Below are positions 51,001 to 54,000 of a stretch of DNA of 64,000 nt, piece by piece. The position numbers are program-made. The stretch lies in the NCBI RefSeq assembly GCF_058153355.1, contig NZ_CM177019.1. One strand, written 5' to 3'. Each line of letters starts with the position of its first letter. Positions within the stretch are counted from its first letter, which is position 1.

Positions 51001-54000
51001 TATACCACGCCATCGGAAAAGCCAGAATGGCGCTGGCGATAGTGACAGCCACAGCCATGGTTAGCGTGCGAAGGATGATGTCGTAATTCGCCGGATTAAA
51101 CAGCGCGCGGATATTCGCCAGCGTCAGTTCTGGCGTTACCGACATGGTGAAATCGTCAAAGGTATAAAAGCCCTGCCATAATAGCGTCAGCAGCGAGCCG
51201 AAATAGATGATACCAAACCACATCAGCGGACCAAGCAGCAGCAAAAACAGCCCCAGTCCCGGTTTCCGCCAGAAGAATCCTGACACCTTACCCAGATTTG
51301 GACGTGAAGGTGATTGCAATACGTTCATCGCCATTCACCTCTCCTCAACCAGCGGCACCATTACATCGCGCGACCAGGAAACCATCACCTGTTGTCCGGG
51401 CGTGAGCGTGGCAGGCAGTTCTTCGCCTGTGATATTGGCCTGACTCACCAGCAGTTTTTCACCGCCATTCAGTCTCAGTTCAAAACGGGTCGCCGCGCCC
51501 TGATACTGCACCGCCTGGATCGTGCCATTAACTTGCACTTCGCCGGGGGTGTTGAGGCGGATATGTTCCGATCTCAGGGCAAAACTGCCTATCATGCCGC
51601 AAAGATTCTCGGCCATTAGCGGCTCAAAAACGTTGGATGTCCCGACGAATCCGGCAACAAACGGCGTGCGCGGACGCATATAGAGATCGCGCGGGGAATC
51701 GACCTGCTCAATACGACCGTTGTTGAATACCGCAACACGATCGGACATCGATAACGCTTCGCCCTGATCGTGGGTGACGAAAATAAAGGTGATGCCAAGA
51801 GACTATTGCAGCTTTTTCAGCTCCAGTTGCATCTGCTCACGCAGCTTAAGATCCAGCGCGCCGAGCGGTTCATCCAGCAGCAATACGCGCGGTTCATTCA
51901 CTAACGCTCTGGCAATGGCAACCCGCTGACGCTGACCACCAGAAAGTTGTGACGGTTTACGTTGCTGTACAAATCCGAGCGCCACTTTCTCCAGCGCCTC
52001 TTGCGCCATTACGTGTCGCTGTTTTTTATCCACCCCTTTGACCATCAGCCCATAGGCCACGTTGTCAAGAATCGACATATGCGGAAAAAGCGCGTAGTCC
52101 TGGAAAACGGTATTCACGTCCCGCTCCCACGGTGGCAGATTGCTGGCGGGTTTACCAAAGATAGATATAGTCCCGCCGGAAAGCTGTTCGAATCCAGCAA
52201 TCAGGCGCAGGCAGGTGGTTTTGCCGGAGCCAGACGGCCCCAGCATTGAGAAAAACTCACCATCTTTTATCGCAATACTGACACCATCTACCGCGCGCAC
52301 ATCACCATACAGTCGCGATACGTTGTCAAACTCCACTGCGTACGTCATAAAACACCCCAGCGAAGTTAGCGGCCGCCCATAATGGCAATATAATCCTGCG
52401 TCCAGCGACTGTAGGGAACAAACTTGCCCCCTTCTGCTATAGGCGTTTTCCAGAAGGCGATTTTATCGAAATAGTTAAAACCGTTTGTTTCACAACCTTT
52501 TTCGCCTAATAACGGACTGGCTTTACACCCTTCCGGCACTACCGGTAACGAGCCAAACCAGGCCGCCACATCGCCCTGCACTTTTGGCGTTAATGACCAG
52601 TTCATCCATTTGTAGGCGCAAACCGGATGTTTCGCTTCGCTATGTAGCATGGTGGTGTCAGCCCAACCGGTAACGCCCTCCTTCGGGAAAACGGTAGCGA
52701 CAGGCTGGCCTTCGGCTTTCAGGGCGTTGGCCTGATAGGGCCATGCACTGGAAGCAACCACACCCTCGTTTTTGAAATCGCTCATTTGCACGGTAGTGTC
52801 ATGCCAGTAGCGATGGATCAAACTATGTTGATCGCACAGCACTTTCAGCACCGCCTGGTACTGTTCTTCGGTGAGTTGATACGGATCGCTGATGCCCAAC
52901 TGCGGCTGAGTGGCTTTAACGAACAACGCAGCATCCGCAATATAAATAGGGCCATCATAAGCCTGAACGCGGCCTTTATTGCTCTTACCGTCCGGCAGAT
53001 TCTGCGCAACAAAAACCACTTGCCAGCTATCCGGCGGCGTCGGGAAGGTTTTCGTGTTGTACATCAGCAGGTTCGGCCCCCATTGGTAAGGAGTGCCGTA
53101 AACTTTGCCGCCAACGTTAAACCAGTCGCCTTTAACCACGCGCGGATCGAGCGCTTTCCAGTTGGGAATCAATGCGGTATTAATCGGCTGCACGCGTTTA
53201 CCCATAATCAGGCGCAGCGAGGCATCGCCGGACGCCGTAACCAGATCGTAACCCCCTTTGGTCATCAGACTGACCATTTCATCGGACGTCGCGGCGGTTT
53301 TTACATTCACCGCGCAACCTGTCTCTTTTTCGAATTGCGTTACCCAGTCGTATTGTTTATCGGTTTGTCCGCGTTCGATGTATCCCGGCCAGGCGATAAT
53401 ATCCAGTCGCCCTTCCGGTTTATCTAAATTGGTGGGCGGTTCGGCGGCGTGAGCGGTCATTATTATCATGGTGAGCGCACACAGGCTGCTGCGGGCAAAT
53501 GTCTTGCTCATAAGGTCTTACTCCTGTCGTAATTAATTGTTCAGCCGCCGTGCCGTAAAAATATCTCCTTGTTTAACCATAGACGGCGGCTTGCAGGCAC
53601 ACCTTCGCCCCTGAGAAAATTTAATCAGGTTGTGAGCTACCGCGCATTATGCCGTCTGTGAGGTTATCTTCTGGAGTATAGACAAGGGGTTAGGAAATAT
53701 GACTGCTATTCGAAATTCATATTACCCAACCTAAGAGGAATTAAATTAAACGCTATTACAGCCGTTCTTGAATAAGTTTGCCTAATTGTTTAACCGCCTG
53801 TTCTTCGCGCTCGCCCCACTGCCATGCAGTATTAAAACGAAAAAAACGTGACCAGTTTTCACCGGTAGAAAACATTTTACCCGGCGCAATACTGATATGA
53901 TGCGTCAGTGCTGCCAGGCTTAATTCGCCCGCATCTAACGGCGCGGGGAGTTCCAGCCAGAGAAAATAACCGCTGTCATTATGATGAATTTTCACTTCTG

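What the first reader, a model, noticed from the sequence alone, without database searches (positions are those of the whole stretch)
51803..51805. In-frame TAG inside the ABC ATPase gene ydcT
On the minus strand the ydcT frame (start 52348) reads ..LREQMQLELKKLQ, then TAG, then [25 protein letters not shown].. in the same phase. The stop lies between the D-loop region and the H-loop (FVTHDQ), so the truncated 181-aa product would lose the H-loop switch histidine and the C-terminal domain. The codon is consistent with CAG to TAG, the same class of change as in maeA.
Basis: partly seen in the sequence, partly recalled or inferred. Interest (0 to 1): 0.6.

Follow-up and report, generated by a model that had tools for sequence, protein, structure and literature searches.

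The report
Ordinary nonsense pseudogene of ydcT
A single C-to-T change has put a real stop codon in the middle of ydcT, the ATPase of a non-essential E. coli ABC transporter, in one small natural lineage; this is ordinary gene decay in a gene that is broken repeatedly across E. coli.

Summary
On the minus strand, codon 182 of ydcT is TAG (window 51803-51805); every comparator examined without this mutation has CAG.

The stop is real. A sister assembly (GCA_015332025.1) and an independent read-set assembly (SRR8656992) carry the same TAG. None of 5,426 complete RefSeq E. coli genomes carries it in either allele context probed.

YdcT is a PotA-like ABC ATPase. The stop falls after the Walker B and D-loop motifs and before H-loop His193 and the TOBE domain. 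The first canonical in-frame restart is Met201, so no fragment keeps the H-loop. The most likely result is a dead ATPase, possibly with reduced expression of ydcU, ydcV and patD downstream.

The same C-to-T arose independently in a second lineage (SRR11661570), where ydcS was already frameshifted. Elsewhere ydcT is broken by an IS1 insertion, by a stop at codon 181 and by frameshifts.

The link to maeA holds only at codon level. The maeA amber sits in a Dcm CCAGG hotspot, recurs on at least eight maeA alleles, and is absent from the sister genome. The ydcT site (AACAGT) is not a Dcm site and its stop is older. CAG-to-TAG is over half of all transition routes to a stop in both genes.

Amber suppression could not be tested. 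Verdict: ordinary, low interest.

The parts
51803..51805 (-). Premature amber codon TAG, codon 182 of ydcT (ancestral CAG, Gln)
   Evidence: for the sequence and frame. CAG in K-12 and every comparator lacking the mutation. TAG also in L005/L039/L040 of the same lineage.
51806..52348 (-). N-terminal 181 codons of ydcT. They encode Walker A (52217-52240), Q-loop Q83, LSGGQ signature (51932-51946), Walker B (51869-51883) and D-loop (51851-51865).
   Evidence: Pfam ABC_tran covers residues 21-162. Alignment to PotA structures 8zx1 and 8y5f.
51335..51802 (-). Untranslated remnant of ydcT downstream of the stop. It holds H-loop His193 (51770-51772), the first canonical in-frame restart Met201 (51746-51748) and the TOBE_2 domain (51356-51580). 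It carries three lineage-private substitutions: P260S at 51571, M306I at 51431 and a synonymous change at 51362.
   Evidence: for the features; for the private changes.
52366..53511 (-). ydcS, the periplasmic binding protein and first gene of the operon; intact (381 aa)
   Evidence: This exact protein is found only in this lineage.
50393..51334 (-). ydcU, permease; intact. Its ATG directly abuts the ydcT stop (TGAATG), so its translation is probably coupled to that of ydcT.
49609..50403 (-). ydcV, permease; intact
48163..49587 (-). patD, gamma-aminobutyraldehyde dehydrogenase, downstream in the same orientation; intact

Best explanation
A spontaneous G:C-to-A:T transition changed Gln182 (CAG) of ydcT to an amber stop in the ancestor of a small, rarely sampled natural E. 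coli lineage.

ydcT encodes the PotA-like ATP-binding subunit of the YdcSTUV ABC importer. Translation ends after residue 181. The product keeps Walker A, the Q-loop, the signature motif, Walker B and the D-loop, but lacks the H-loop histidine (His193), the last part of the nucleotide-binding core and the TOBE domain. It should therefore be unable to hydrolyse ATP or to assemble normally, which leaves the transporter without its dedicated motor.

The ydcT stop directly abuts the ydcU start, and the premature stop leaves 468 nt untranslated. Reduced translation of ydcU, ydcV and perhaps patD is likely.

The lesion is tolerated because the system is dispensable, and ydcT is lost repeatedly in E. 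coli and Shigella.

Shown here: the mutation, its reality in independent assemblies, its position relative to the motifs, its independent recurrence, and other independent disruptions of ydcT. Inferred: loss of ATPase function, polarity, and neutrality.
For: - TAG in frame at codon 182; CAG in K-12 and every comparator lacking the mutation.
- Same TAG in Logan SRR8656992 (L005/L039) and in NCBI GCA_015332025.1 (L040, where no ydcT protein is on record). Both differ from the window by the same two synonymous SNPs, so they are not the window's own assembly.
- No complete RefSeq E. coli genome carries the T in either allele context, and the positive control worked.
- Motif map from PotA structures and Pfam.
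- No canonical in-frame start between the stop and His193; the first is Met201.
- Independent recurrence: L004 is 99.955% identical to L009/L011, which have CAG; one of its 4 differences in 8,942 bp is this C-to-T. That background is 1.7% divergent from the window and already has ydcS frameshifted.
- Other ydcT lesions: an IS1 insertion listed in 688 index blocks, CAA-to-TAA at codon 181, and frameshifts.
- A ydcT knockout is reported to have only a small phenotype: less than a 50% drop in natural transformation, against 6.7- and 9.5-fold for ydcS and ydcV (PMC6135910).
- CAG-to-TAG is 15 of 28 transition routes to a stop in ydcT.
Against: - No expression or protein data exist.
- Amber suppression or readthrough in this strain cannot be excluded from a 64-kb window that contains no tRNA gene.
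- ydcS, ydcU, ydcV and patD are all still intact in this lineage, so the rest of the operon has not visibly decayed.
- The excess of non-synonymous private changes downstream of the stop (2 of 3, against 4 of 15 in five neighbouring genes) is not significant, and the density of private changes there is not unusual.
- No C-rich, G-poor stretch suggesting a strong Rho utilisation site was seen downstream of the stop, so polarity is only an inference.
Confidence: 0.9

Rival explanations
1. The TAG is a sequencing or assembly error in the window genome, and the gene is actually intact.
For: It is a single-base difference, and no complete RefSeq E. coli genome shares it.
Against: The same base is present in an independent NCBI assembly (GCA_015332025.1, L040) and in a Logan assembly of run SRR8656992 (L005/L039). 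Both differ from the window at two other sites, and two further similar contigs were not shown. The 137-aa downstream ORF with the lineage-private S260 and I306 is also on record in two Logan contigs.
Confidence: 0.01
2. The amber codon is decoded, by a natural suppressor tRNA (supE-like Gln tRNA with a CUA anticodon) or by leaky termination, so that useful amounts of full-length YdcT are still made and the gene remains functional.
For: - A Gln-inserting suppressor would restore the exact wild-type protein, because the ancestral codon is CAG.
- The rest of the operon is intact.
- The window isolate carries a second CAG-to-TAG change, in maeA.
Against: - The second amber is fully explained by a Dcm hotspot. 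It is absent from the sister genome that shares the ydcT amber, so the two are unrelated events.
- No tRNA gene lies in the window.
- Two of the three lineage-private substitutions downstream of the stop are non-synonymous, which fits relaxed constraint, though weakly.
- Orthologues have a sense codon here, so this is not a conserved recoding site.
- The base after the stop is T, which from my own recollection of E. coli termination-context studies is not a leaky context.
- ydcT is inactivated by unambiguous lesions such as IS1 in many other lineages, so loss is clearly tolerated.
Confidence: 0.03
3. The two halves work as a split protein: the 181-aa N-terminal fragment plus a separately initiated C-terminal fragment reconstitute an ATPase.
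For: A 137-aa ORF covering the TOBE domain follows in the same frame, and gene callers report both pieces.
Against: The first ATG, GTG or TTG in frame after the stop is Met201. This lies beyond His193, so neither fragment contains the H-loop. The 25 nt upstream of Met201 show no evident Shine-Dalgarno sequence. No intact relative is organised as two genes.
Confidence: 0.01
4. Loss of YdcT is adaptive and not neutral: repeated independent knockouts reflect selection against the YdcSTUV transporter in some niches. This variant is compatible with the best explanation; it differs only in the evolutionary force.
For: Independent hits were found: Q182* twice, Q181*, a widespread ydcT::IS1, frameshifts in ydcT and a frameshifted ydcS in the L002/L009 lineage.
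Against: - Ascertainment is strong. Exact-sequence look-ups and length-based clustering can only return truncations near residue 181, and the collection holds an enormous number of E. coli read sets, so homoplasy at any transition site is expected.
- The 40 top-ranked of 5,412 complete genomes with a match list an ordinary ydcT CDS.
- In L004 the operon was already dead (ydcS frameshift), which fits neutral decay.
Confidence: 0.15
5. The site is a mutational hotspot, for example a cytosine methylated by a strain-specific m5C methyltransferase, as at the maeA site.
For: The same C-to-T occurred in two backgrounds, and the neighbouring C of codon 181 is hit in a third.
Against: - The context AACAGT is not CCWGG. 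The two CAG codons of ydcT that do lie in CCAGG (codons 83 and 278) are intact.
- The exact 181-aa product is on only 5 contigs, one of which is merely a contig end, against 136 index blocks for the maeA hotspot product.
- No complete genome carries the change.
Confidence: 0.04

Closest known systems
PotA, ATP-binding subunit of the E. coli spermidine/putrescine ABC importer PotABCD (PDB 8zx1, 8y5f-8y5i)
   Same: The restored YdcT aligns to PotA over residues 9-249 with E about 1e-77 and has the same order of motifs. It also has a C-terminal TOBE-type regulatory domain. The best NCBIfam matches are the PotA/polyamine families.
   Different: Scores fall below the curated PotA equivalog cut-off (353.9 against 482) and the polyamine subfamily cut-off (340.7 against 355.6). 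YdcT is therefore a paralogue with an unproven substrate. In this window the gene is interrupted at codon 182.
Other natural ydcT pseudogenes in E. coli and Shigella (ydcT::IS1; Q181* ochre; frameshifts; split ydcT in Shigella sonnei records)
   Same: They are independent inactivations of the same gene, often with the rest of the operon still present.
   Different: The lesions and lineages differ. The Q182* allele of the window lineage is rare: four or five assemblies or read sets, and no complete RefSeq genome.
Dcm (CCWGG) 5-methylcytosine deamination hotspots for amber mutations (Coulondre et al. 1978, as reviewed in PMC12606429)
   Same: The outcome is the same codon change, CAG to TAG by a C-to-T transition. 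The maeA amber in this window is a textbook example: GACCAGGGC becomes GACTAGGGC.
   Different: The ydcT site is AACAGT and not CCWGG, so this mechanism does not apply to the finding itself.
H-loop (switch histidine) mutants of ABC ATPases such as MalK, HisP and HlyB
   Same: The truncated product lacks the equivalent histidine (His193). Loss of ATP hydrolysis is therefore expected; this rests on my own knowledge of the ABC literature.
   Different: Here the whole C-terminal 156 residues are missing, not one side chain, so misfolding or degradation is at least as likely as a specific catalytic defect.

Membership tests
ABC transporter nucleotide-binding protein, PotA-like (PF00005 + TOBE_2) | Walker A, Q-loop, LSGGQ signature, Walker B, D-loop and H-loop in canonical order, followed by a TOBE domain | tested here: met
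   All are encoded in one reading frame once codon 182 is read as Gln. Pfam gives ABC_tran 5e-34 and TOBE_2 3e-15; the protein aligns to PotA structures.
ABC transporter nucleotide-binding protein, PotA-like (PF00005 + TOBE_2) | An uninterrupted ORF that places all motifs in one polypeptide | tested here: not met
   TAG at codon 182 separates Walker B and the D-loop from the H-loop and TOBE domain. The restart is possible only from Met201.
PotA equivalog (spermidine/putrescine importer ATPase) | Score above the curated NCBIfam cut-off | tested here: not met
   NF006987 scores 353.9 bits against a cut-off of 482; TIGR01187 scores 340.7 against 355.6. It is a paralogue, not PotA itself.
Pseudogene by nonsense mutation | An in-frame stop at a position where intact orthologues have a sense codon | tested here: met
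   CAG in K-12 and all comparators without this mutation. No complete genome carries T.
Pseudogene by nonsense mutation | The lesion is real, i.e. reproducible in independent data | tested here: met
   Present in GCA_015332025.1 and SRR8656992 as well as the window.
Pseudogene by nonsense mutation | The truncation removes parts needed for function | tested here: met
   H-loop His193 and TOBE_2 residues 257-331 lie downstream of the stop. The functional consequence itself is inferred.
Pseudogene by nonsense mutation | The stop is not suppressed or read through in the host | not testable with these tools
   The window has no tRNA genes. The rest of the genome and expression data are not available.
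Dcm 5-methylcytosine deamination hotspot | The mutated C is the inner C of CCWGG | tested here: not met
   The ydcT context is GCAACAGTC. By contrast, maeA codon 164 is in CCAGG.
Programmed stop-codon recoding (readthrough, pyrrolysine-type) | The in-frame stop is conserved among orthologues | tested here: not met
   Orthologues have CAG. TAG is confined to one small lineage plus one independent recurrence.

The most novel reading that the evidence does not exclude
This wild E. coli lineage carries a natural amber suppressor, or has weakened RF1 termination. In that case the ydcT TAG, and the newer maeA TAG in the window isolate, would be read as Gln, both genes would remain partly functional, and amber codons could accumulate in the lineage.
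Probability: 0.03. Interest if true: 0.45.

Novelty: already known. Interest (0 to 1): 0.08.

Why it matters
It matters little beyond correct annotation. ydcT in this lineage should be flagged as a pseudogene, as the gap where ydcT should be called in GCA_015332025.1 suggests NCBI has already done, and YdcSTUV-dependent functions should not be assumed for these isolates.

The case adds one more example of how readily this non-essential PotA-like transporter is lost in E. coli. The comparison with maeA also shows that two identical-looking CAG-to-TAG changes in one genome can have different causes and ages: one at a Dcm hotspot and recent, the other at an ordinary site and older.

It would be of wider interest only if the lineage turned out to suppress amber codons.

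Tried and rejected
- The look-up of the 172-aa MaeA N-terminal ORF from the upstream ATG found nothing. The 163-aa product from the K-12 start worked.
- The scan of GTDB species-representative genomes for the TAG-containing 41-mer found nothing, so the source organism could not be named that way.
- The accessions NZ_CP057565.1 and NZ_AP025754.1 are not in the complete E. coli collection. The species of the 4.5-4.7 Mb genomes that share the window's exact YdcU therefore stays unidentified.
- The restored full-length MaeA and the OmpC-family porin are far too common (44,686 and 791 index blocks) to single out the sister isolate. The lineage-specific YddG did single it out.
- The test for relaxed constraint downstream of the stop found nothing significant. 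Private substitutions run at 6.4 per kb in the ydcT 3' part, against 0-5 per kb in neighbouring genes; 2 of 3 are non-synonymous there, against 4 of 15 elsewhere.
- The search for a C-rich, G-poor Rho-loading region in the 468 untranslated nucleotides found nothing notable.
- L006, L043 and L044 looked like further carriers of a truncated ydcT, but they are only contigs that happen to end at that point and have the wild-type sequence. This is an artefact of exact-sequence look-up.
- A short recombination tract as the origin of the TAG in L004 was considered. It would have to fit between differences at gene positions 472 and 573, and L004's nearest relatives are otherwise identical in ydcT. Independent mutation is preferred.

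Full report
**1. Observation**

Translating the minus strand from the ATG at 52348 gives a PotA-like ABC ATPase. It reads ...LREQMQLELKKLQ, then TAG at 51803-51805 (codon 182), then [13 protein letters not shown]... in the same phase, ending at the normal stop at 51335-51337. The ORF list shows a 181-aa ORF (51803-52348) and a 137-aa ORF (51335-51748) in the same frame.

**2. Genomic context**

The window is an E. coli-type chromosomal segment running from dosP to rimL, which corresponds to K-12 1.50-1.565 Mb in reverse orientation. Most genes are about 91-98% identical to K-12 at the DNA level.
- The best complete RefSeq E. coli genomes reach only about 98.3% identity over 25 kb.
- At ydcT itself, the window carries a rare allele class: 18 of 5,412 complete genomes are at least 95% identical, and the rest are about 92-93%.
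- ydcS, ydcU, ydcV and patD are intact.
- The ydcT stop directly abuts the ydcU start (TGAATG).

**3. Ancestral state and rarity**

Codon 182 is CAG in K-12 and in every comparator fetched that lacks this mutation: L001-L003 and L009-L018.

I built 41-mer probes centred on the variant base, so that every 28-base megablast seed must contain it.
- The window-allele probe with T found no complete E. coli genome.
- The K-12-allele probe with T found none either.
- The wild-type control probe found the 12 expected genomes.
- No GTDB species-representative genome has the TAG 41-mer.

**4. Is the stop real?**

Yes.
- The exact 181-aa product is on record in Logan assemblies.
- L005/L039 (run SRR8656992) is 99.99% identical to the window over 20.5 kb and has TAG.
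- L040, from NCBI assembly GCA_015332025.1 (contig AAXEGZ010000007.1), also has TAG. No protein is called there, as expected for an annotated pseudogene.
- Both differ from the window by the same two synonymous SNPs, at window 52145 and 50957. They therefore represent another isolate or assembly of the same lineage, not the window's own assembly.

**5. What the stop removes**

Pfam places ABC_tran on residues 21-162 and TOBE_2 on residues 257-331 of the restored protein. The alignment to E. coli PotA structures (8zx1, 8y5f) fixes these motifs:

| Motif | Residues |
|---|---|
| Walker A | G37-T44 |
| Q-loop | Q83 |
| LSGGQ signature | 135-139 |
| Walker B | D159/E160 |
| D-loop | 162-166 |
| H-loop | His193 |

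The first ATG, GTG or TTG in frame after the stop is Met201, so no pair of separately made fragments could retain His193. The sequence before Met201 has no evident ribosome-binding site.

By NCBIfam scores the protein is PotA-like but falls below the PotA equivalog and polyamine subfamily cut-offs. It is a paralogue of unproven substrate.

Published work reports a weak phenotype for ydcT. A ydcT mutant lowers plate natural transformation by less than 50%, against 6.7-fold for ydcS and 9.5-fold for ydcV (PMC6135910). A review lists YdcT/U/V as PotA/B/C-like (PMC9397018).

**6. Recurrence and other lesions in ydcT**

L004 (run SRR11661570) also has TAG at codon 182, but on a background 1.7% divergent from the window.
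- It is 99.955% identical to L009 (AP025754.1) and L011, both of which have CAG. One of the four differences in 8,942 bp is this C-to-T. This is an independent mutation.
- In that lineage ydcS was already frameshifted.

ydcT is broken in other ways elsewhere:
- an IS1 insertion after about codon 123, listed in 688 index blocks;
- CAA-to-TAA at codon 181;
- frameshifts.

These look-ups are strongly biased towards truncations near residue 181, and they draw on a very large number of read sets. Recurrence at this site is therefore not evidence of a hotspot. L006, L043 and L044 are merely contig ends.

**7. Relation to the maeA amber**

maeA codon 164 is indeed CAG-to-TAG, at window 10536-10538. 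The wild-type context GACCAGGGC contains the Dcm site CCAGG, and the mutated base is its inner, methylated C. This is the classic 5-methylcytosine deamination hotspot for amber mutations (Coulondre et al. 1978, as reviewed in PMC12606429).

Consistent with a hotspot:
- The exact 163-aa MaeA fragment is listed in 136 index blocks.
- The TAG occurs on at least eight distinct maeA alleles, which differ from each other by 9-50 nt and from the window allele by 71-81 nt. One of them is the K-12 allele with only this change.

The ydcT site (AACAGT) is not CCWGG, and the two CAG codons of ydcT that lie in CCAGG (83 and 278) are intact.

The sister genome GCA_015332025.1 was retrieved through the lineage-specific YddG. 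Over window 8510-29403 it differs from the window only at position 10536, where it has C and an intact 565-aa MaeA, and by a 12-bp repeat indel. So the ydcT amber is shared and older, while the maeA amber is private to the window isolate. L033 (SRR31441161) is identical to the window in that region.

CAG-to-TAG accounts for 15 of 28 transition routes to a stop in ydcT and 26 of 47 in maeA. Two such changes are therefore the default expectation, not a signature.

**8. Tests that were inconclusive**
- Lineage-private substitutions are spread over the whole operon at 0-6 per kb. The three downstream of the stop (P260S, M306I and one synonymous) are not a significant excess.
- No tRNA gene lies in the window, so suppression cannot be assessed.
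- No obvious Rho-loading composition follows the stop.

**9. Conclusion**

This is a genuine, lineage-level nonsense pseudogene of a dispensable PotA-like ABC ATPase. It arose by an ordinary C-to-T transition. Loss of the ATPase, and possibly polarity on ydcU, ydcV and patD, is the most likely consequence; this step is inferred. The finding is correct but ordinary. The only reading that would raise its interest is natural amber suppression in this lineage, which has no positive support (about 3%).

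Noticed in passing
window 10536-10538 (maeA codon 164, + strand): The maeA amber lies in a Dcm site (GACCAGGGC becomes GACTAGGGC). The same truncation is listed in 136 index blocks and occurs on at least eight distinct maeA alleles, including a K-12-type allele. It is absent from the sister genome GCA_015332025.1, which otherwise differs from the window only by a 12-bp indel over 20.9 kb. This is a recurrent hotspot mutation and a recent one in this isolate.
   Followed up: yes
window about 47333-47334 (ydcY, minus strand, 47283-47517): A one-base (G) insertion after codon 61 of ydcY shifts the frame and extends the ORF to 129 aa instead of 77. The same 129-aa product is called in the sister read set L005, so the change is real in the lineage.
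   Followed up: partly
window about 23005 (second yddK-like LRR gene, 22274-23509, + strand): A one-base deletion relative to relatives truncates a 412-416-aa leucine-rich-repeat protein to 246 aa. In the sister NCBI assembly no protein is on record for either LRR gene.
   Followed up: partly
window 22033-22044: A 12-bp tandem-repeat copy-number difference (ATCCTC x2) in the first LRR gene is one of only two differences between the window and the sister genome across window 8510-29403.
   Followed up: no
window 48000-55300 (ydcR to patD): The window carries a rare, divergent allele class of the ydc operon. ydcT is at least 95% identical in only 18 of 5,412 complete E. coli genomes and about 92-93% in the rest. 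The exact YdcU protein is nevertheless widespread, including in 4.5-4.7 Mb genomes (e.g. CP057565.1, CP053045.1) with different downstream synteny; the one queried (NZ_CP057565.1) is not in the complete E. coli collection. These may be other Escherichia species or an old introgression.
   Followed up: partly
window 35178-38298: Where K-12 has yncH, rhsE, ydcD, yncI and ydcC, the window has a 658-aa protein with a weak metallo-beta-lactamase-fold match and a 365-aa GGDEF diguanylate cyclase.
   Followed up: no
window 19651-20751: A full-length 366-aa OmpC-family porin sits where K-12 keeps only the 96-aa remnant yddL.
   Followed up: no
window 13075-13637: A HigB-like toxin ORF (92 aa) overlaps the start of yddM (HTH antitoxin-like) by one base, forming an apparently complete toxin-antitoxin pair. 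The K-12 annotation lists only yddM.
   Followed up: no
window 55243-55479: hicA is absent and only the 3' part of hicB remains. The same partial hicB is annotated in the close E. coli genome NZ_CP169399.1.
   Followed up: no
window 34639-34873 (pptA, minus strand): A one-base insertion four codons before the end of pptA shortens the product by two residues (75 instead of 77 aa). It is probably harmless.
   Followed up: partly
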